NCBI GenBank assembly: GCA_035623825.1
Contig: DASPSR010000022.1
Location: 1-64,000 of the forward strand
From: Nitrospirota bacterium
GTDB taxonomy: Bacteria > Nitrospirota > UBA9217
Reading direction: 5' to 3'
Length of the DNA: 64,000 bases
Part shown: in pieces, positions 17,134-24,087 of the stretch
Layout of the letters: the number at the start of each line of letters is the position of its first letter
Numbering within the stretch: the stretch's first letter is position 1
Notes under the pieces: generated by a model
What the model was told of the DNA's origin: nothing
The model's input: only the letters and a program-made list of their open reading frames with translations
The model's database searches: none
Position numbers and translations under genes: made by a program

Positions 17134-18729
17134 GTGAATAAAAGGCCTGCAGCAATAGCCGTCGCAATCGGCATACTACTTTCCCGCATCATGGGGCTTG
17201 TGCGAGAGCGCGTTTTCGCTCATTACCTCGGCAACTCCGACGCCGCGGGCGCTTTTCGGGCCGCTTTGCGAATCCCCAATCTTTTACAGAATCTTTTCGG
17301 GGAAGGAGTGCTCTCTGCCTCGTTCATCCCGGTATACGCCAAGCTGCTGGCGGAAGGGAAGGAGGAAGAGGCTGGCCGGGCCGCTTCCGTCGTCCTTACG
17401 CTTCTTGTGTCCGTGACGGCATTGCTCGTGATCATAGGCGTAACATGCAGTCGGCCACTTATCGAGATCCTTGCCCCCGGATTTCACGGTGAGGTCCGGG
17501 AACTGACCATCAGAATGGTTGCTATCATGTTTCCCGGAACGGGACTCCTTGTGCTGTCAGCATGGTGCCTCGGTGTACTGAACAGTCACCGGAAATTCTT
17601 TCTCTCCTACGTCGCGCCGGTGCTCTGGAATTTGGCCATCATTGCAGTTTTGGTCGGTATTGGCGGATACTATCTGGCAAATCGCTCCCAGTCACAGGCA
17701 CAGCTTGTCATCTGGGTAGCGTGGGCGACAGTCATTGGTGCGGCGCTTCAATGGGGAGTGCAGTTCCCCTACGCCCTAAAGCTTAACGGCTTGTTCACGT
17801 TTTCGCTGAAAACCCGGCTGGCGCCCGTGCAGAAGATTATAACCAACTTCACGCCGGCGGTGGTCACTCGGGGGGTTGTGCAGCTGTCTGCCTACATAGA
17901 TCAAGTTTTAGCTAGCTATTTGGGACCCGCATCGGTCGCGGCCATGGCTTACGCCCAGACTATCTATACTCTTCCGGTGTCTCTGTTCGGAATGGCGATA
18001 TCTGCGGCCGCACTGACGGAGATGTCAAGAACCACCGGAACAAAAGTGGAAATTGTCCGGGAACTGGAAGCCCGGCTGACCGTCGGGACCAGGAGGATGG
18101 CATTTTTCGTTGTTCCGTCAGCCGTGGCGTTTATCGTCTTGGGCGATGTCATCACAGCTATGCTTCTTCAAACAGGGCACTTTGGAGGATCGGATTCGCG
18201 TTTCGTCTGGTTCATATTGGCAGGGAGCGCAGTAGGACTAGTGGCCACCACACAATCCCGCCTCCTCATCTCGGCCTTCTGGTCACTTGGCAACACCAAG
18301 ACACCGATGGGCATTGCATGTTTCCGTGTTGCTTTAACGGCCCTCTTGGGTTTCATTGTGGTGTTTCCCATGCGGTCCTTCTTTGCGTTGGATGCCGTAT
18401 ACTGCTCCGCTTCACTTACCGCATCTGCGGGTGTCGCCGGTTGGATCGAGTTTTTGCTTTTCAGATACGCTCTTTCTGCAAAAATCGGCCAATTCAAGCT
18501 CGGCGGCCGGATGATACTCGAGCTTTGGGGCATAGCCGTTGTCTCCGCCGCCATCGCCCTGGGAGCAAAATTTTACCTCCTTGGATTTCACGTCATTATA
18601 CGCGGGGTGGCCGTACTGGGACTTTACGGACTGCTGTATATTGGCGGTGCTACTGCAGCAGGAATCCCGGAAGCAGTGGAAGCGATTCGTCTGATAAGGC
18701 GTTACCTTTCAGGCACGAAGTGGAGGTAA
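17134..18729 (+). CDS. murJ: lipid II flippase MurJ (MviN)
   Basis: SRIMGLVRE, RIPNLLQNLFGEGVLSASFIPVY, LPVSLFG; about 14 TM helices. Confidence 0.93.
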   Translation: MNKRPAAIAVAIGILLSRIMGLVRERVFAHYLGNSDAAGAFRAALRIPNLLQNLFGEGVLSASFIPVYAKLLAEGKEEEAGRAASVVLTLLVSVTALLVIIGVTCSRPLIEILAPGFHGEVRELTIRMVAIMFPGTGLLVLSAWCLGVLNSHRKFFLSYVAPVLWNLAIIAVLVGIGGYYLANRSQSQAQLVIWVAWATVIGAALQWGVQFPYALKLNGLFTFSLKTRLAPVQKIITNFTPAVVTRGVVQLSAYIDQVLASYLGPASVAAMAYAQTIYTLPVSLFGMAISAAALTEMSRTTGTKVEIVRELEARLTVGTRRMAFFVVPSAVAFIVLGDVITAMLLQTGHFGGSDSRFVWFILAGSAVGLVATTQSRLLISAFWSLGNTKTPMGIACFRVALTALLGFIVVFPMRSFFALDAVYCSASLTASAGVAGWIEFLLFRYALSAKIGQFKLGGRMILELWGIAVVSAAIALGAKFYLLGFHVIIRGVAVLGLYGLLYIGGATAAGIPEAVEAIRLIRRYLSGTKWR

Positions 18730-18767
18730 CCTTTATCTCGAAACCGGGGGAATTACCCGGCAAAGCT

Positions 18768-20408
18768 TTAGTTCGAATCTTTGAGCTGAAAACAGAAGGG
18801 GTCTTTGCTTACGAAGACATTCAGGCCGTGGCTGTAGGCGCTGGCCAGACACCCGCCGCAGACCGGACGGACCATGCAAGACCGACACTCAGCGCTGCCC
18901 AAACGGTAATGCTGCGCCTGTTCCGAGTCGTAAATATTGGCAATACCCTGACGATGAATGTTACCGATGGGAGAGGGGAATTTCCGACAGGCATGGACCT
19001 CGCCGTCGGCGAGAAGGGTAATGAAGTTGAAGGCCGCACCGCAGCCGTAGCCGGTGCAGCCGCCGAACGGGGCATTACGGCGGTCTCGGCGGATGATGTT
19101 GATAAGATTATCCTTGATTCCCATAACGGGATTGTTGCAGGCCGCATCGAGATAGGATTCAAGAAAAGCGCGGTATGTTCGCACATCGGGCAATTTGAGG
19201 TTTGCACCCTCGCCGACCTTGGAGAGCCGGCTAAAATGAAAGACGTCAGCCTTGTCTCTGAGCACCTCGGCAAGCGTAAGCACTTGGCCGATATTCTCGC
19301 TCGTCAGTGTAAGCATGACCATTGACGATACCCCGAGTTCCCTCAGCACATCCAGGAACATCATGACCCGATCAAAATGACCGTGGCCGCGGATGGCGTC
19401 ATTGTGATCCCTGAGCCCCTCGAGGCTCACCTGGTAAAAGGACGGCATGTGGATCTCAATCAGCTCGGCGATCCTCTCCCGCGGCGCGGGGTTGCCGAGG
19501 ATGGCCAGGGCAAAACCACGCTCGGCGGCTGCGCGATAGATCTCCGAAAACTCAGGATGCAAGAGAGGGTTCCCCCCGGTAAAAGAGACCGCTCCTATAA
19601 CGTGTCTGCTGTTACAGAAAAGACGAAGTTCGTCGAGTATGCGGACTGCGCTGCTGAACGTTATTGGCGTTCGGGTGCTGCGGTCATAACAGTGTTTGCA
19701 GTGCAGGTCACAGGCCTGTGTGATATGCCATTGAAGAGTAAAGGAGGGCGAGGTCAGGTACAGCTCGGGAATGCTGTTTTGACTGCGAAAAAATTCAGGA
19801 TCCCGCCGGAGGCGGGACCGCGGCATGAGCAGGAGACCGCTTGCACCGGCACGATAGAGGGCGTTATCCACTGCCCCCACGGGCAATCCGCCCTGTGCCG
19901 CAACGGCTTCCGGAGCTATCCCCTCAACAACCATTTTGAGGACAAGAAGGTCTTCGTCCGTTGCAGGCCGTGCCATTACGCGCCCGGAAAGAGCATGATA
20001 CCAGAGGATGACCCGCTCGGCCTTTTGCGAAGGATGGATGTCGGAAAACTTGAGATGCCTGTGGAGAAATGATGTAAGATTGCTCCAAGATAATTCAAGG
20101 ATTCGCAGCGTCGGGTTGACGCTCGGCAGTTCTACTTCCCTCGGGAGGGATCCCTTGCTCTCCTCTACGGAGGCATGAACCTCCTCGAGACGGGCAAGAT
20201 CCTGCAAAAAAGGGGGAATCGAGCCGTCTTTATTCGGGCTTAATACGGTCGAAAGGGTGCGCGAAACAACGGCTTTTGACTCCCGTGAGGAGAGACGTAA
20301 CCACGCAGCCTTACCCAGCATATCCCGACATGCACGATATAGGGTCTCTGGTCCATTGGCGATCATATAATCCGTCAAGCCTGGGAGAGAGTATCCCGGG
20401 AATGTCAT
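18768..20408 (-). CDS. sbtM: thio(seleno)oxazole RiPP radical SAM/SPASM maturase (selenobiotic family); start may be 20366
   Basis: FTLQWHITQACDLHCKHCYDR (CxxxCxxC), FTGGNP, GGCTGYGCGAAFNF, SPASM cysteines CRSC..VCGGC..DPFC; long N-terminal extension; adjacent precursor gene. Confidence 0.88.
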   Translation of the reverse strand: MTFPGYSLPGLTDYMIANGPETLYRACRDMLGKAAWLRLSSRESKAVVSRTLSTVLSPNKDGSIPPFLQDLARLEEVHASVEESKGSLPREVELPSVNPTLRILELSWSNLTSFLHRHLKFSDIHPSQKAERVILWYHALSGRVMARPATDEDLLVLKMVVEGIAPEAVAAQGGLPVGAVDNALYRAGASGLLLMPRSRLRRDPEFFRSQNSIPELYLTSPSFTLQWHITQACDLHCKHCYDRSTRTPITFSSAVRILDELRLFCNSRHVIGAVSFTGGNPLLHPEFSEIYRAAAERGFALAILGNPAPRERIAELIEIHMPSFYQVSLEGLRDHNDAIRGHGHFDRVMMFLDVLRELGVSSMVMLTLTSENIGQVLTLAEVLRDKADVFHFSRLSKVGEGANLKLPDVRTYRAFLESYLDAACNNPVMGIKDNLINIIRRDRRNAPFGGCTGYGCGAAFNFITLLADGEVHACRKFPSPIGNIHRQGIANIYDSEQAQHYRLGSAECRSCMVRPVCGGCLASAYSHGLNVFVSKDPFCFQLKDSN

Positions 20409-20524
20409 CTACGGTCTTGCTCGACGCTCCCGGGATCGCGAGAACGAAACTGTTTCATGCATTTGGCATTGCGAGAGGCTGGCGCCTCCCTTATGTTCTT
20501 GGTTCTTTGATAGTGCAGACTGCA

Positions 20525-20803
20525 CTATTTGCTGCCGCCTGAGCTTCCGGATGGCGCTGGTTGATCCGGCTTCTCATTTGAACCGGTTCCGCTGCCTGAG
20601 GGAGCCGATGTCGGAGCAGCTTTTGTGCCGCTTCAACTGCTATGCGTTGCAGTCTGTTTTGTGGTAACACCTGTACCACTACCCGTACCGCTTCAGCTGC
20701 CTTCGGCTTTGTGCATGCTTCCGTCGATGACAAGACCGGCGCCGGCAATCAGTCCGACTATACCGAACCCCATCAGAAACTTTTTCAGTTCCCGATTATC
20801 CAT
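20525..20803 (-). CDS. sbtA: SbtA-like selenocysteine RiPP precursor, 92 aa if both UGA are read as Sec: MDNRELKKFLMGFGIVGLIAGAGLVIDGSMHKAEGS-U-SGTGSGTGVTTKQTATHSS-U-SGTKAAPTSAPSGSGTGSNEKPDQPAPSGSSGGSK
   Basis: AGGAGGTG RBS; ELKKFL.GF.I.GLIAG leader; UGA at 20695-20693 and 20635-20633, both in AGY-TGA-AGC-GGY; TAG stop; co-oriented just upstream of sbtM; absent from the ORF track. Confidence 0.82.
20661..20679 (-). promoter_or_regulatory. candidate bacterial SECIS for the first UGA of sbtA
   Basis: GUGGUAC-AGGU-GUUACCAC hairpin with a bulged U and a G-containing loop, starting 13 nt 3' of the UGA. Confidence 0.65.
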
Positions 20804-21168
20804 AGGTTCACCTCCTTTTTGTATGATGTTCGTTGATATGAAGAGTACACAAATCCGAGGTAAGATGAACTAAGGGGTTCACTCTATGACCTCATTAAAG
20901 AAGGGGGAGGTATGGTGCATACCGATGACTATTGCAAATAGTTATAGGTTAATTCTATATATTCTCCGTGCCGCTGTCAAGGTCGAGAGGTGATTTTGTC
21001 AGCCTATCTCTTCACATGATTCCCGAAATAGCATCACCTGGTCACAATCGCCTAAACAATTCAATACTTTTCAAATCAGGGCACCCGTTTAAGGCTGTGA
21101 AGAACGCCACTAGGAATGAAGGGCGGATTGAGGGGATAATCATGGTAAATCAGTCTGGTTCGCGTACC

Positions 21169-22236
21169 TTAACTGTACATCAGTTTTCGCTCCAGGTCTT
21201 TCGAGCGAGAGGTCCGCTTTGCCTCGTCGAGAGTTATGAATTCCGCCCGGCAGAGCTGGATGAGATGCTGGTCCATCGTCTGCATGCCGTATTCGTCTCG
21301 TCCCTTCTCGATGTACTGCTCAATATCATCGAGGTGGTTGTCCCTTATGCACGCCTTAATGGTAGAAGTCGCATACATCACTTCAAGGGCAGGCAGGATA
21401 GTCTCGCCGCTTTTCCCTCTTACGAGCCGCATAGATGTGATGGCCATGAGACTCTCCGCCAGCCTGTGCCTCGCATTCTCCTGAGCCTCAGGCGGAAAAT
21501 AACCGACGATGCGGTTGATGGACGAAGCGGTATTATGGGTATGAAGCGTGGATAGTACCAGATGCCCAGTCTCGGCGGCCTTAATACAGGCGTCTATGGT
21601 TTCTAGATCGCGCATTTCTCCGACCATGATGACGTCCGGATTCATTCTCATCGCAGACCGCAGTGCAACGCTGAAACTGTCCGTATCGATGCCCACCTCC
21701 CTCTGAATAACACAGCTTTTGTTTGAGGAGAACAGAAACTCGATTGGGTCCTCGATGGTAATGATATTGTAATCGAAATTATCGTTGATATACTTCAGCA
21801 TCGATGCGAGTGTCGTCGATTTGCCGTTGCCGGTCGGCCCGGTGACGAGTATAAGGCCATTAGGAACCTGCGCAATCCTGCCGAGGACGGATGGAAGATT
21901 CAGCTCCTCGAAGGTGCTAACCTGATGCGGTATGACCCGCATGACGATGCCGAGATTCCCGCGTTGCCGGAAGATGCTAACGCGGAAACGGCCGACGTTC
22001 GCCAGAGTATAGGAAGTATCAAATTCCTTCAAGTCTTCATGCAGCTTACGGTGATGCTGCTCCATGACCGCGTTTGCGACGAACTCGGTATCCTGTTTCG
22101 TCAAGCTCGCGAGCTTGGCGCGGATGAGATGGCCGTGTGCCCGGAACATCGGCGGGTTGTCGACCTCAAAATGGATGTCCGAGACCCTTTTTTCGAAGGC
22201 AATTTGAAGGATCTGATTCAGTATCGCATTGTCCAT
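21169..22236 (-). CDS. pilT: PilT/PilU-family type IV pilus ATPase
   Basis: SDIH, GRFRVSIFRQRG, GPTGNGKST, TIEDPIEF, PDVIMVGEMRD, AAETGHLVLSTLHT, GMQTMDQ. Confidence 0.9.
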   Translation of the reverse strand: MDNAILNQILQIAFEKRVSDIHFEVDNPPMFRAHGHLIRAKLASLTKQDTEFVANAVMEQHHRKLHEDLKEFDTSYTLANVGRFRVSIFRQRGNLGIVMRVIPHQVSTFEELNLPSVLGRIAQVPNGLILVTGPTGNGKSTTLASMLKYINDNFDYNIITIEDPIEFLFSSNKSCVIQREVGIDTDSFSVALRSAMRMNPDVIMVGEMRDLETIDACIKAAETGHLVLSTLHTHNTASSINRIVGYFPPEAQENARHRLAESLMAITSMRLVRGKSGETILPALEVMYATSTIKACIRDNHLDDIEQYIEKGRDEYGMQTMDQHLIQLCRAEFITLDEAKRTSRSKDLERKLMYS

Positions 22237-22278
22237 GATGGTCTTGCACCTCCGCATTTTCTCTTGGCCCGAGACCCG

Positions 22279-24087
22279 TTAAGGTATCTCTGATTTTTGG
22301 GACGCCTTGTTCACCTGTCTCCGGAAAAGACCATATTCCAGTAAAATGCCGACCTGTTGAGCAAGGATCTCGAGTATATCAAGCTGCACCGGGGACGCCT
22401 CCTTATTCCCGAAATCCCCATATACAATCGCTATTACTTTTCGATCGACTATCAGGGGCAGCAGGACAAAAACCGGGCTCTTGGGTTTGCCAATTTCCTT
22501 GAAAAGGTCCTTTATCGTTTCATCGCTGCTCTCCCCATAGTACGCCAGCCCTTTTTCGAGCACATCCCGGAAAACCGAAGGCTTTGAGAGCGGTATTTTA
22601 AGCCCATCGGCCGGGGTCGGCCCCATATCCTTTTCAGAGCTCATTCCTATGGCCCTTTCGCCAGTCAATTCTGAAGGACGCACAAAAAAAGTGACCGCAC
22701 GCTCGAACATTCCTGCAACACCGACGAGCATCGCCAGAATTACATCAGCAGGGTTGGTGCTTTCGCGAAGCGGTTTGATGTCGTTTTTTAGTTTTTTCAC
22801 GTATCGATCAATGGTGTCGGGTTGGTACTGAAAATTTTTAATATAAGACCTGAAGGCGTCGAGAAACTGCATCGTATCCTGGATGTACGTTTCTCTCCGT
22901 ATTTCTTTCAGCGGCCTAGGGAGAACGGCCCTGACACCGTCATTGTACGATTGAAGGATGAAATTACTCTCCAACGGAGAGGCGAATTGCAGAAGAGGGA
23001 CTGAAGAGTACTTTCCTCTCAACCGGTTCCGAAGGGCTATGATTTTTCCCTCGGAAAGCCCGCCCCCTGATCTCACGGGACTGTCAAGAACGACCGCGGG
23101 CATTCTCATGGCAGAGATGCATTGGGATACGATCCGTTCGAGGTCCATCTCATCGTCCGTTGCAAATACGGGTATTCCTTCATCATTGCATATCGTCATA
23201 ACAGAATGACTTATCAGCTTGTCACCGCTGAAAATGATTACAGCCTTGTCCGCCTGCTGCGCCGCAGCGCCGGGCGCGGCTTTGCGGGCTACGGATTTCC
23301 TCAAAAAGGTAACAAATGCTTCCTGCTCTTCGGAGGGAAAACCCGTGAGTATTTCCTTTATTTTCTGGCGATGGATTTCGACCGGGTTGAAGTTTTCCAT
23401 TTCAGACGCAGGCCGGGATATTTTTTTCTCAAGTCGATCAACATCGGCAAGCCCGAGATCATCCGCGGTAATTATCGACCGCGCTCCTTTTGTCTTGCCT
23501 GCGGTTCCCGCTGGAAAGACGTCGGCATAGAGTGCCTCGAAGGACTGAACTTCTTTCCCGATAGCACGGTCACGTTCACGCTCGTCAAAGATACGAGAAG
23601 CATCCATCAAAACCATCTGGGCATCGACCCCCACAAGCTGCTCAATGTCGCCGAAAGCAGGCTCACCTTCTGGAGAGAAGAAGATAGTGTCCGTATCGAA
23701 CGTAAAAGTACCCTTGGTCCAGCTCATCAGCTCGACGATTGTCATTTCGACCAGCTTTCTCAGCCCTCGAAGAGCATCTTCCGGCTTGAGCTTGCCCATC
23801 TGCATTAAAGTAACCATGATCGGCCTGCGATCCTTAGTGGCGTCGTTCTGGGCGTCCAATGCCTGCTTGAGATCTTCAAGTGTTATGGCGCCTGTCTTTA
23901 CCAGAACGGTCCCGATGCGGATGCTATCGTCGATGTGATTTGCACAAACAATGGATCCGTTGCTGAAGACAATATTACTCTCCCCCTTGTCCCCCTTAAC
24001 GGAAAAAATCCCTGACTTCCGCGTTGTGTGGACCAGCTGGATGATGTCTACTATCGGCAGATGTTCTAAATCCCCGGTAAAAGCCAT
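22279..24087 (-). CDS. DUF4388 (PatA-N-like) signalling protein with degenerate receiver-like and GAF-like regions
   Basis: MAFTGDLEHLPIVDIIQL..RKSG, IGTVLVKTGAIT, LMSWTKGTFTF; C-terminal VLLPL..KVIAIVYGD. Confidence 0.8.
   Translation of the reverse strand: MAFTGDLEHLPIVDIIQLVHTTRKSGIFSVKGDKGESNIVFSNGSIVCANHIDDSIRIGTVLVKTGAITLEDLKQALDAQNDATKDRRPIMVTLMQMGKLKPEDALRGLRKLVEMTIVELMSWTKGTFTFDTDTIFFSPEGEPAFGDIEQLVGVDAQMVLMDASRIFDERERDRAIGKEVQSFEALYADVFPAGTAGKTKGARSIITADDLGLADVDRLEKKISRPASEMENFNPVEIHRQKIKEILTGFPSEEQEAFVTFLRKSVARKAAPGAAAQQADKAVIIFSGDKLISHSVMTICNDEGIPVFATDDEMDLERIVSQCISAMRMPAVVLDSPVRSGGGLSEGKIIALRNRLRGKYSSVPLLQFASPLESNFILQSYNDGVRAVLPRPLKEIRRETYIQDTMQFLDAFRSYIKNFQYQPDTIDRYVKKLKNDIKPLRESTNPADVILAMLVGVAGMFERAVTFFVRPSELTGERAIGMSSEKDMGPTPADGLKIPLSKPSVFRDVLEKGLAYYGESSDETIKDLFKEIGKPKSPVFVLLPLIVDRKVIAIVYGDFGNKEASPVQLDILEILAQQVGILLEYGLFRRQVNKASQKSEIP

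What the first reader, a model, noticed from the sequence alone, without database searches (positions are those of the whole stretch)
18768..20803. Hidden multi-selenocysteine RiPP precursor plus radical SAM maturase
Seen: an unannotated ORF with a strong RBS reads through two UGAs at codons 37 and 57, each in the same S-U-S-G-T context (AGY TGA AGC GGY ACR), then a Ser/Gly/Pro-rich tail to a TAG. It lies directly upstream of a radical SAM/SPASM gene. Known: the SbtA/SbtM (selenobiotic, TIGR04081/TIGR04082) family has Cys/Sec precursors whose maturase forms thio(seleno)oxazoles. The family is described; what is unusual here is a precursor with no Cys at all, two repeated Sec cores, a third copy with Gly in place of Sec (S-G-S-G-T-G-S) and a long follower. 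No protease, transporter or other tailoring gene is adjacent. Inference: a poly-selenium modified peptide, possibly retained in the membrane by its hydrophobic leader rather than released as a bacteriocin.
Basis: partly seen in the sequence, partly recalled or inferred. Interest (0 to 1): 0.88.

Follow-up and report, generated by a model that had tools for sequence, protein, structure and literature searches.

The report
Two-selenocysteine SbtA precursor and SbtM maturase
A small gene that gene callers cut short at an in-frame UGA encodes a peptide with two selenocysteines next to its radical SAM enzyme; it is a regular member of an already described family of selenium-containing modified peptides, not an unusual one.

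Summary
A minus-strand ORF (20803..20525) with an AGGAGG ribosome-binding site reads through TGA at codons 37 and 57, both in S-U-S-G-T, and ends at TAG. A 546-aa radical SAM/SPASM gene lies 117 nt downstream. Both curated NCBIfam models pass their cut-offs (SbtA 34.3/30.5 bits; SbtM 703.9/350), so this is an SbtA/SbtM thio(seleno)oxazole pair.

The features called unusual are mostly normal for the family. Of 73 precursors compared, 54 have two or more internal UGA codons, 10 have no Cys, and S/G-U-S/G-G is the standard core. The long tail (6 of 73) is two decayed cores: GGA and TCA stand where the nearest relatives carry TGA or TGT.

Sec decoding is supported by Cys codons at both UGA columns in close relatives, and by selD and two fdhA genes with in-frame TGA in the same genome. 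However, selA, selB and tRNA-Sec are missing from this 89.65%-complete assembly.

New here: the conserved N-terminus looks like a signal peptide. It carries a lipobox in 43 of 73 precursors; the window has Ser at that Cys position. No transporter or protease gene is conserved nearby. This suggests an exported, membrane-tethered product.

Verdict: new member of a known kind, modest interest.

The parts
20525..20803 (-). sbtA: 92-codon precursor read with TGA = Sec at codons 37 and 57, including the TAG stop
   Evidence: TIGR04081 34.3 bits against a cut-off of 30.5 on residues 1-25
20811..20816 (-). AGGAGG ribosome-binding site, 7 nt before the ATG
   Evidence: read from the sequence; conserved in the 4-way alignment
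20952..20980 (-). Promoter-like site TTGACA-17-TAGAAT (11 of 12 matches), about 150 nt upstream of sbtA
   Evidence: It is a consensus match only: 1 site found against a mean of 1.7 in shuffles
20717..20803 (-). Codons 1-29: conserved leader that looks like a signal peptide (K/R n-region, about 19 uncharged residues). Ser29 stands where 26 relatives have the lipobox Cys
20693..20695 (-). TGA codon 37 (Sec core 1, G-S-U-S-G-T)
   Evidence: The same column is TGC in L029, TGA in L039 and TCC in L028
20661..20679 (-). SECIS-like hairpin after core 1: 7-bp stem with one bulge, loop AGGU starting 21 nt after the UGA
   Evidence: The geometry and GGU loop resemble the hairpins after the UGA of this genome's own fdhA and selD. 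Its stability is not above shuffles (z +0.46)
20633..20635 (-). TGA codon 57 (Sec core 2, S-S-U-S-G-T)
   Evidence: The same column is TGT in L028 and TGA in L029 and L039
20580..20612 (-). Extended hairpin after core 2, apical loop CAGGC about 35 nt after the UGA; a less canonical SECIS candidate
   Evidence: z -1.50; 19 of 200 shuffles fold as well
20588..20590 (-). Decayed core 3: Gly72 GGA opposite TGA (L028) and TGT (L029)
20540..20542 (-). Decayed core 4: Ser88 TCA opposite TGA in L029 and L039 (GGA in L028)
   Evidence: TCA is confirmed in contigs of further DNA runs and one RNA run with 0 differences (records 3, 15, 19)
20511..20527 (-). Hairpin overlapping the TAG stop (7-bp stem, loop GUC). 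In relatives it is the SECIS-position hairpin of the last Sec. Here it is kept although that Sec codon is gone
   Evidence: z -2.02; 10 of 200 shuffles fold as well. Apart from one loop base, it is identical in all 4 aligned loci
18768..20408 (-). sbtM: 546-aa radical SAM/SPASM maturase. It has an N-terminal helical region, an RRE-like beta3-alpha3 domain at about residues 100-190, CX3CX2C at C233/C237/C240, and SPASM cysteines
   Evidence: TIGR04082 703.9 bits against a cut-off of 350; Pfam Radical_SAM and SPASM; invariant Cys columns; model pLDDT 86.8; best fold matches SkfB, CteB and SuiB

Best explanation
This is a two-gene sbtA-sbtM cassette of the described thio(seleno)oxazole RiPP family.

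Proposed mechanism:
1. sbtA is translated through two UGA codons as selenocysteine, giving a 92-residue peptide. This step is inferred.
2. The cytoplasmic radical SAM/SPASM enzyme SbtM converts each Sec into a 5-selenooxazole, with the carbonyl of the preceding residue and a loss of 4 H per site. This chemistry was shown in vitro for a homolog from another organism and is inferred here.
3. The conserved N-terminus is a signal peptide that sends the modified, disordered Ser/Gly/Thr/Pro-rich peptide through the general Sec pathway. That would explain why no dedicated transporter or protease gene accompanies the pair. In most relatives the signal is of lipoprotein type. In this copy the lipobox Cys is replaced by Ser29, so the product would stay as a signal-anchored peptide or be cut by signal peptidase I. 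This step is inferred.
4. This copy keeps two of four ancestral Sec/Cys cores. Its long tail is what remains of the other two.

The biological role is unknown. My best guess is soft-metal binding or redox chemistry at the outer face of the cytoplasmic membrane, by two selenolate-bearing heterocycles.
For: Family identity:
- SbtA scores 34.3 bits (cut-off 30.5) and SbtM 703.9 bits (cut-off 350).
- SbtM has the CX3CX2C and SPASM cysteines, invariant in 32 homologs.
- Its model (pLDDT 86.8) best matches the RRE-bearing RiPP maturases SkfB, CteB and SuiB (E about 1e-13, 440-480 aligned columns).

Pairing: a leader-like ORF lies beside SbtM in 74 of 80 related loci. This genome has only one such leader.

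Sec decoding:
- Both UGA columns hold Cys codons in a close relative: TGC in L029 at codon 37 and TGT in L028 at codon 57. They hold TGA in the others.
- After the first TGA, substitutions are fewest at codon position 2 (10, 7 and 4, against 19, 16, 13 at position 1 and 18, 23, 15 at position 3).
- Family-wide, the 55 nt after 175 UGA sites fold better than the 55 nt after 42 Cys-core sites (mean -15.2 against -10.8 kcal/mol, Mann-Whitney p = 1.5e-7).
- 82 of 175 UGA sites have a hairpin of 4 bp or more with GGU in the loop, 13-42 nt downstream. Only 2 of 42 Cys sites do.
- The same genome has selD with TGA at G-A-G-U-A-C-K, and three molybdopterin-oxidoreductase genes (two of them fdhA over the cut-off) with TGA at C-A-R-x-U-H. 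Each is followed by a GGU-loop hairpin at the same distance.
- selA is over its cut-off in 10 of 12 other genomes of the same family, and in all 5 other SbtM-bearing relatives.

Chemistry: SbtM from another organism removes 4 H from Cys and Sec peptides and forms a thio(seleno)oxazole (PMC9204691 and PMC11002830, passages read).

Export:
- A PROSITE-style lipobox (pattern recalled) occurs in 43 of 73 precursors, with Cys at position 29 in 26 of them. Shuffled controls give a mean of 6.6 and a maximum of 13.
- Most of the other precursors end their hydrophobic stretch in A-x-A-like motifs.
- No neighbouring gene is conserved. The largest cluster of flanking genes occurs in 9 of 81 loci.

Leader-enzyme contact (weak): complex prediction of SbtM with residues 1-36 scored 0.59, against 0.02 for the best of 3 controls. 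The mark was reached by 58 of 80 solved complexes and 2 of 110 mismatched pairs. At 0.60 or under, it was reached by only 7 of those 80 and by both passing mismatches. The runs agree in at least 86% of contacts and the partner pLDDT is at least 69. My own alignments were used, and similar leader-maturase complexes are solved, so the pass may reflect likeness.

Transcription: contigs from a peat metatranscriptome cover 20028-20817 with 0 or 1 differences (run X8). A second RNA run (X10) covers 20400-20562.
Against: - selA, selB and tRNA-Sec were not found in this assembly (89.65% complete, 67 contigs). A same-genus genome, G003, also lacks selA.
- The hairpin after codon 37 is no more stable than shuffles (z +0.46; 127 of 200 fold as well). 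Its sequence is also conserved in L028 and L029, where the codon is not TGA, so its conservation may be at the peptide level.
- The hairpin after codon 57 is non-canonical and far from the UGA.
- The UGA-versus-Cys comparisons use related, non-independent sites. The Cys sites come from few precursors.
- This copy lacks the lipobox Cys and has no good A-x-A site (H-K-A, or D-G-S), so its export and processing are uncertain. No signal-peptide predictor was available.
- Two of four cores are lost, which could mean decay.
- A synthetic 'minimal peptide' was enough for SbtM in vitro (PMC9204691), so the leader may not be needed for recognition.
- RNA contigs cannot prove a transcript, its strand or translation. 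The tool warns that DNA can be present in RNA libraries.
- Nothing here shows selenium in the product.
Confidence: 0.8

Rival explanations
1. The TGAs are ordinary stops. The gene would encode only the 36-residue hydrophobic peptide, and the downstream frame would be non-coding.
For: Gene callers produced exactly this 36-aa product (P0001). selA, selB and tRNA-Sec were not found in the assembly. The first hairpin is not unusually stable.
Against: The frame after the TGA is kept in 72 relatives' precursors with the same repeated cores. Cys codons replace TGA at both columns in close relatives. All-Cys versions of the family exist (6 of 73). Substitutions show a codon-position pattern. The genome has other genes that need Sec decoding: selD and two fdhA genes. 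SbtM would have no Cys or Sec substrate in a 36-aa product.
Confidence: 0.04
2. This is a decaying cassette. The precursor has lost its lipobox Cys and two of four Sec cores and no longer makes a working product, even if it is still transcribed.
For: Ser29 stands at the modal lipobox-Cys position. GGA and TCA stand at two former Sec/Cys columns. SbtM was not found over its cut-off in any of the 3 other genomes of the same genus searched. That fits a dispensable, patchy trait.
Against: sbtM is intact with all invariant Cys. The two remaining cores are canonical. The three nearest relatives also lack a lipobox Cys yet keep 2-5 Sec/Cys, so this is a lineage variant rather than a lone wreck. 27 of 73 precursors have exactly two internal Sec. 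RNA contigs cover the gene.
Confidence: 0.08
3. The product is a released antimicrobial peptide (bacteriocin-like), as the old name 'selenobiotic' implied, and not a cell-associated factor.
For: RiPPs made by radical SAM/SPASM maturases with RRE domains are often antimicrobials; the best fold matches, SkfB, CteB and SuiB, are RiPP maturases. The window copy could be cut by signal peptidase I and released into the periplasm.
Against: No immunity, ABC-transporter or leader-protease gene is adjacent or conserved. 43 of 73 precursors carry a lipobox, which predicts lipid anchoring. The cores are long, low-complexity and variable in number, unlike compact antimicrobial scaffolds.
Confidence: 0.08

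Closest known systems
SbtA/SbtM thio(seleno)oxazole RiPP system (NCBIfam TIGR04081/TIGR04082). First predicted by Haft and Basu 2011; SbtM characterised in vitro by Lewis et al. 2021. Neither paper was held; I know them through PMC9204691 and PMC11002830
   Same: Both HMMs pass their cut-offs. The layout is a precursor followed by the maturase. UGA codons sit in small-residue cores, followed by hairpins. There are multiple Sec per peptide. No other dedicated genes are present.
   Different: The host is a peat bacterium whose nearest SbtM relatives are Nitrospirota MAGs. [quoted passage not shown] The lipobox Cys and two cores have been lost.
Bufferins (MNIO/DUF692-made 5-thiooxazole periplasmic copper-binding RiPPs; preprint 10.1101/2024.03.18.585515, passages read)
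   Same: Cys-derived 5-thiooxazole heterocycles. The precursor has an N-terminal Sec-type signal peptide. No dedicated exporter. Two or more heterocycles per peptide.
   Different: The bufferin enzyme is an O2-dependent non-haem iron MNIO with a DUF2063 partner, not a radical SAM enzyme. Bufferin cores fold like small proteins, whereas SbtA cores are low-complexity. SbtA uses Sec and mostly lipoprotein-type signals. Metal binding by SbtA is untested. SbtA is a functional analogue at most, not a member.
RRE-bearing radical SAM/SPASM RiPP maturases SkfB, CteB and SuiB (PDB 6efn, 5wgg, 5v1t)
   Same: The overall fold is an N-terminal peptide-binding domain, a radical SAM barrel and a SPASM domain (E about 1e-13).
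   Different: Sequence identity is only 16-20%. Those enzymes make thioether or C-C cross-links, not oxazoles. SbtM has about 90 extra N-terminal helical residues.

Membership tests
SbtA (TIGR04081) | Score at or above the curated HMM cut-off | tested here: met
   34.3 bits against a cut-off of 30.5, residues 1-25. The margin is narrow, and the model covers only the 27-residue leader
SbtA (TIGR04081) | Encoded beside an SbtM radical SAM gene | tested here: met
   117 nt upstream on the same strand. The same pairing occurs in 74 of 80 related loci
SbtA (TIGR04081) | Sec (UGA) or Cys in small-residue cores after the leader | tested here: met
   G-S-U-S-G and S-S-U-S-G. SSUSG occurs at 18 sites and GSUSG at 9 sites among relatives. 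Cys stands at both columns in close relatives
SbtA (TIGR04081) | Host genome has the selenocysteine-insertion trait | tested here: inconclusive
   selD and two fdhA genes carry in-frame TGA at the known Sec positions. selA, selB and tRNA-Sec were not found in the 89.65%-complete assembly
SbtA (TIGR04081) | SECIS hairpin directly after each UGA | tested here: inconclusive
   Site 1 has a GGU-loop hairpin at the expected distance, but z is +0.46. Site 2 is non-canonical. The family-wide signal is clear
SbtA (TIGR04081) | Selenium actually incorporated and converted to selenooxazole | not testable with these tools
   Needs mass spectrometry or 75Se labelling
SbtM (TIGR04082) | Score at or above the curated HMM cut-off over the full length | tested here: met
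   703.9 bits against a cut-off of 350, model positions 2-516 of 516
SbtM (TIGR04082) | CX3CX2C radical SAM motif and SPASM cysteines | tested here: met
   C233, C237, C240, C451, C456, C474, C508, C511, C517, C520 and C539 are invariant in 32 sequences. Pfam Radical_SAM and SPASM match
SbtM (TIGR04082) | Fold of a peptide-modifying radical SAM/SPASM enzyme with a peptide-recognition domain | tested here: met
   Model pLDDT 86.8, with a beta3-alpha3 unit at about residues 100-190. Best matches are SkfB, CteB and SuiB
SbtM (TIGR04082) | Catalyses oxazole formation on Cys or Sec | not testable with these tools
   Shown only for a homolog from another organism (PMC9204691)
Bufferins (considered as an analogue) | MNIO (DUF692) enzyme with a DUF2063 partner | tested here: not met
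   The only adjacent enzyme is a radical SAM protein. No conserved neighbour in 81 loci
Bufferins (considered as an analogue) | [quoted passage not shown] | tested here: inconclusive
   A lipobox rule is met in 43 of 73 family members, against a shuffled maximum of 13. The window copy has the n- and h-regions but no Cys and no clear cleavage site. No dedicated predictor was available

The most novel reading that the evidence does not exclude
The SbtA 'leader' that TIGR04081 models is a Sec-pathway signal peptide, of lipoprotein type in most members. SbtA peptides would then be exported, membrane-tethered poly-(seleno/thio)oxazole chains. That makes them a radical SAM, oxygen-independent counterpart of the periplasmic bufferin metallophores in anaerobes, and a second RiPP class that uses the general secretion pathway. 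The window copy would be a lineage variant that swapped lipid anchoring (Cys29 to Ser) for a signal anchor or signal peptidase I cleavage, and that tunes its valency by gaining and losing Sec cores. I found no statement of this in the papers I could read (searches). The two primary papers on the family were not held, so it may already be in print.
Probability: 0.4. Interest if true: 0.6.

Novelty: new member of a known kind. Interest (0 to 1): 0.3.

Why it matters
For this locus, little changes. It adds a correctly delimited two-Sec SbtA to a family that already has curated models and a characterised enzyme. It also shows that the public protein collection searched here holds this precursor only as its 36-residue stub.

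The family-level by-products are more useful:
- Multi-Sec precursors are the rule. In this sample the family occurs in MAGs labelled Nitrospirota, Desulfobacterota-type groups, Syntrophales, Brocadiia, Chloroflexota and others.
- Sec cores turn over by single-base changes: TGA to TGY, GGA or TCA.
- The conserved N-terminus behaves like a lipoprotein or Sec signal, and no transporter gene is conserved nearby.

If this is confirmed, the unknown biology of these selenium RiPPs would shift from 'antibiotic' towards a cell-envelope metal-binding or redox role in anaerobes. That can be tested directly.

Tried and rejected
- Rfam scan of 18000-22000 at E up to 10 gave only a chance snoRNA-like hit. 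There is no curated bacterial SECIS match to lean on.
- Single-hairpin thermodynamics is not decisive for this locus: site 1 has z +0.46. I rely on comparative data instead.
- MurJ (17134..18729) as a possible exporter is rejected. It is convergent and housekeeping-like and is not conserved beside SbtM in relatives.
- PilT-like and DUF4388 genes upstream are likewise not conserved neighbours.
- A second precursor elsewhere in the genome: none found.
- Public homologs of 50-161 aa: none at E <= 0.01. This reflects truncation by gene callers, not absence of relatives.
- PF27804, which is precomputed for the 36-aa stub, is not in the local Pfam copy, and Pfam gave no hit for the precursor.
- In the read laying, parts of sbtM and the flanks had no RNA contig. 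I draw no conclusion from that.
- One DNA contig in X6 skips 20537-20650 (depth 3.48). I did not follow it up.
- Rows dropped before the precursor counts: L056 (run of N); L050, L069 and L084 (read through a terminal TGA into downstream sequence, more than 160 aa); and 6 of 80 loci with no leader hit at E <= 1e-3, several of which are cut by a contig end.
- Counts of U include TGAs near the C-terminus that could be true stops. One search gives the conservative count.
- The lipobox pattern and the usual bacterial SECIS spacing are recalled, not taken from a call.
Supplements were not requested.
- Lewis et al. 2021 and Haft and Basu 2011 were not held. Their text and supplements may already contain the signal-peptide observation and multi-Sec lists.
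Full report
WHAT IS THERE. On the minus strand, an ATG at 20803 follows an AGGAGG site at 20816..20811. It opens a frame that meets TGA at codon 37 (20695..20693) and codon 57 (20635..20633) and ends at TAG (20527..20525). Read with TGA as Sec, the product has 92 residues. It starts with a charged N-terminus (M-D-N-R-E-L-K-K) and an uncharged stretch of about 19 residues. Two S-U-S-G-T cores lie 20 residues apart, followed by a Ser/Gly/Thr/Pro/Lys-rich tail. There is no Cys. A 546-codon gene starts 117 nt downstream on the same strand (20408..18768). A good sigma-70-like site (TTGACA-17-TAGAAT) lies about 150 nt upstream of the small ORF. It is a consensus match only.

FAMILY. NCBIfam places the small ORF in TIGR04081 (SbtA, 34.3 bits, cut-off 30.5, residues 1-25). 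It places the enzyme in TIGR04082 (SbtM, 703.9 bits, cut-off 350, full length). Pfam sees Radical_SAM and SPASM in the enzyme and nothing in the peptide. In an alignment of 32 SbtM homologs, the CX3CX2C cysteines and eight further cysteines are invariant. An AlphaFold model (pLDDT 86.8, pTM 0.85) shows four parts:
- an N-terminal helical part;
- a three-strand, three-helix unit at about residues 100-190;
- the radical SAM barrel;
- the SPASM domain.
Its best PDB matches are the RiPP maturases SkfB, CteB and SuiB, over 440-480 columns. These enzymes carry an N-terminal peptide-recognition domain.

The published chemistry comes from passages of PMC9204691 and PMC11002830. SbtM from another organism removes four hydrogens from Cys or Sec peptides and forms a thio(seleno)oxazole. 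The product can still be alkylated. [quoted passage not shown]

IS THE PRECURSOR UNUSUAL? A scan of one genome per species found 181 stretches encoding SbtM relatives, and the best 80 were kept. The nearest, at 64-67% identity, are Nitrospirota MAGs. A leader profile built from the window's first 36 residues finds a read-through ORF beside SbtM in 74 of these 80 loci, and two loci have two. I dropped one ORF with a run of N and three that read through a terminal TGA into other sequence. That left 73 precursors, including the window.
- TGA codons per precursor: none in 6, one in 8, two in 22, three in 26, four in 10 and five in 1.
- Counting only TGAs followed by at least four codons, 54 of 73 have two or more.
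- Ten of 73 have no Cys at all.
- The residue before U is S at 76 sites, G at 73 and A at 19. The residue after U is S at 95 sites and G at 50.
- Median length is 80 residues (range 54-152), and 28 are at least 92 long.
So two Sec residues, repeated cores, the absence of Cys and the S-U-S-G context are all ordinary here. Only the 35-residue tail after the last Sec is uncommon (6 of 73, median 4).

WHERE THE TAIL COMES FROM. In the DNA alignment with L028, L029 and L039, the four columns of interest read as follows.

| Column in the window | Window | L028 | L029 | L039 |
|---|---|---|---|---|
| Codon 37 | TGA | TCC | TGC | TGA |
| Codon 57 | TGA | TGT | TGA | TGA |
| Gly72 | GGA | TGA | TGT | gap (L039 lacks this segment) |
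| Ser88 | TCA | GGA | TGA | TGA |

The window peptide is therefore a four-core precursor that keeps two Sec. Each lost core is one base away from TGA. Contigs from further DNA runs and one RNA run confirm the TCA.

The hairpin that overlaps the TAG stop (20527..20511; 7 bp, loop GUC; z -2.02) is the SECIS-position hairpin of the last Sec in relatives. Apart from one loop base, it is identical in all four loci, including the two that have lost that Sec. It may also serve as an RNA-stability or attenuation element between precursor and enzyme. I did not test this.

IS UGA READ AS SEC? Four lines of evidence support it.
- Cys/Sec column equivalence in close relatives, as tabulated above.
- Six all-Cys family members.
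- A codon-position pattern of substitutions after the first TGA, with position 2 changing least.
- A family-wide RNA signal. The 55 nt after 175 UGA sites fold to a mean of -15.2 kcal/mol, against -10.8 after 42 Cys-core sites (p = 1.5e-7). Hairpins with GGU in the loop, 13-42 nt downstream, occur at 82 of 175 UGA sites and at 2 of 42 Cys sites. These sites are related to each other, so the p-value overstates the case.

In the window, the first UGA is followed after 13 nt by a 7-bp stem with an AGGU loop. This matches the geometry and loop motif of the hairpins after the UGA of this genome's own fdhA genes (loop GGUCU) and selD (loop CAGGUCC). Its stability alone is unremarkable (z +0.46). The second UGA has only a longer, less canonical hairpin (z -1.50).

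The genome itself gives mixed evidence. selD carries TGA at G-A-G-U-A-C-K. Two fdhA genes over the cut-off, and a third molybdopterin enzyme, carry TGA at C-A-R-x-U-H. So the organism must decode Sec. Yet selA, selB and tRNA-Sec are absent from the assembly, which is 89.65% complete in 67 contigs. Among 20 relatives, selA is over its cut-off in 13, including 10 of 12 of the same family and all five other SbtM carriers. I read the gap as unassembled sequence, but it is not proven.

SURROUNDINGS. Downstream, on the opposite strand, lies MurJ. Upstream lie a PilT-type ATPase and a DUF4388 protein, and further on two short-chain dehydrogenases. An all-against-all comparison of flanking ORFs in 81 loci finds no conserved neighbour. 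The largest real cluster occurs in 9 loci. SbtM over its cut-off is patchy: 6 of 21 genomes, and none of the three other genomes of the same genus.

THE LEADER LOOKS LIKE A SIGNAL PEPTIDE. The 27-position family model covers only the N-terminus. Applying a PROSITE-style lipoprotein rule (pattern recalled), 43 of 73 precursors have a lipobox, with the Cys at position 29 in 26 of them. Shuffling residues 11-45 gives a mean of 6.6 and a maximum of 13. Four more precursors are near misses. Most of the rest end the hydrophobic stretch in A-Q-A, A-H-A, A-W-A, S-Y-A or A-N-A-like motifs. The window has Ser29 in the lipobox-Cys column. Its three nearest relatives also lack that Cys.

Together with the lack of any conserved transporter or protease gene, this suggests export by the general Sec pathway. 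Most members would then be lipid-anchored. The window copy would be signal-anchored or cut by signal peptidase I.

A complex prediction of SbtM with residues 1-36 gave weak support. The score was 0.59, against 0.02 for the best of 3 controls. The mark was reached by 58 of 80 solved complexes and 2 of 110 mismatches. At 0.60 or under, it was reached by only 7 of those 80 and by both passing mismatches. Contact agreement between runs was at least 86%, and the partner pLDDT was at least 69. My own alignments were used, and solved look-alike complexes exist. The leader may therefore also contact the enzyme, although a synthetic minimal peptide sufficed in vitro.

The bufferin preprint describes its MNIO-made thiooxazole copper-binding peptides as the first bacterial RiPPs with Sec signal peptides. 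The parallel with SbtA is striking: the same heterocycle, a signal peptide and no exporter. But the enzyme class differs, and metal binding by SbtA is untested.

EXPRESSION AND HABITAT. The stretch occurs in peat metagenome runs. Two metatranscriptome runs hold part of it. Laid contigs of RNA run X8 cover 20028-20817, which is all of sbtA, the spacer and the 5' end of sbtM, with 0 or 1 differences. Run X10 covers 20400-20562. Contigs cannot show strand, transcript ends or expression level, and DNA carry-over is possible. Loose ends of other contigs at 20650-20680 show co-occurring strain variants that keep TGA in the first core within different neighbouring residues.

VERDICT. This is a real, correctly spotted and mis-annotated two-Sec SbtA with its SbtM maturase. 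It is a new member of a known kind. The traits put forward as special are typical of the family or are remnants of lost cores. The most novel reading still open is at family level: an exported, mostly lipoprotein-type selenium RiPP of anaerobes.

Noticed in passing
G000:C48:65582-66493 (outside the window): selD carries an in-frame TGA at G-A-G-U-A-C-K, so selenophosphate synthetase is itself a selenoprotein in this organism. A hairpin with loop CAGGUCC follows.
   Followed up: partly
G000:C22:12211-14214, C60:4828-6831, C39:37575-38018 (outside the window): Two formate dehydrogenase alpha genes and a third molybdopterin oxidoreductase each have one in-frame TGA at C-A-R-x-U-H. The two fdhA genes share the hairpin GUGGCC-GGUCU-GGCCAC.
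   Followed up: partly
whole assembly G000: selA, selB and tRNA-Sec are not in the 67-contig assembly, although at least four genes need them. ARAGORN finds no tRNA-Phe or tRNA-Ile either, so tRNA regions are under-assembled.
   Followed up: partly
window 20511-20527 (-): The hairpin overlapping the sbtA stop codon is, apart from one loop base, identical in four loci that are only 77% identical overall. Two of these have lost the Sec codon it would serve. It may have a second role as a spacer element between sbtA and sbtM.
   Followed up: partly
L033, L044; L079, L051, L086, L045, L038; L041, L037, L043: The gene order of the cassette varies. Some loci have two precursors. Some have the precursor downstream of SbtM or on the opposite strand.
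   Followed up: no
L067:2567-2959; L056:1866-3413: Extreme all-Cys relatives. One precursor has 11 Cys in T-S-C-S-G-type repeats. Another has tandem K-T-S-C-S-G-K-T units interrupted by an assembly gap (run of N).
   Followed up: no
window 20537-20680, runs X5, X6, X8: Peat runs hold several strain variants of the precursor that break assembly inside the repeated cores. One position (20539) is polymorphic in a DNA run and an RNA run. One DNA contig skips 20537-20650.
   Followed up: no
window 21169-24087 (-): A PilT-type ATPase (T2SSE) is followed upstream by a 602-aa DUF4388 protein. They are not linked to SbtM in relatives.
   Followed up: no
G001:C10:284212-285600: A same-genus genome has selA split into four pieces with internal stops. 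This is either a sequencing-error artefact or a pseudogene.
   Followed up: no
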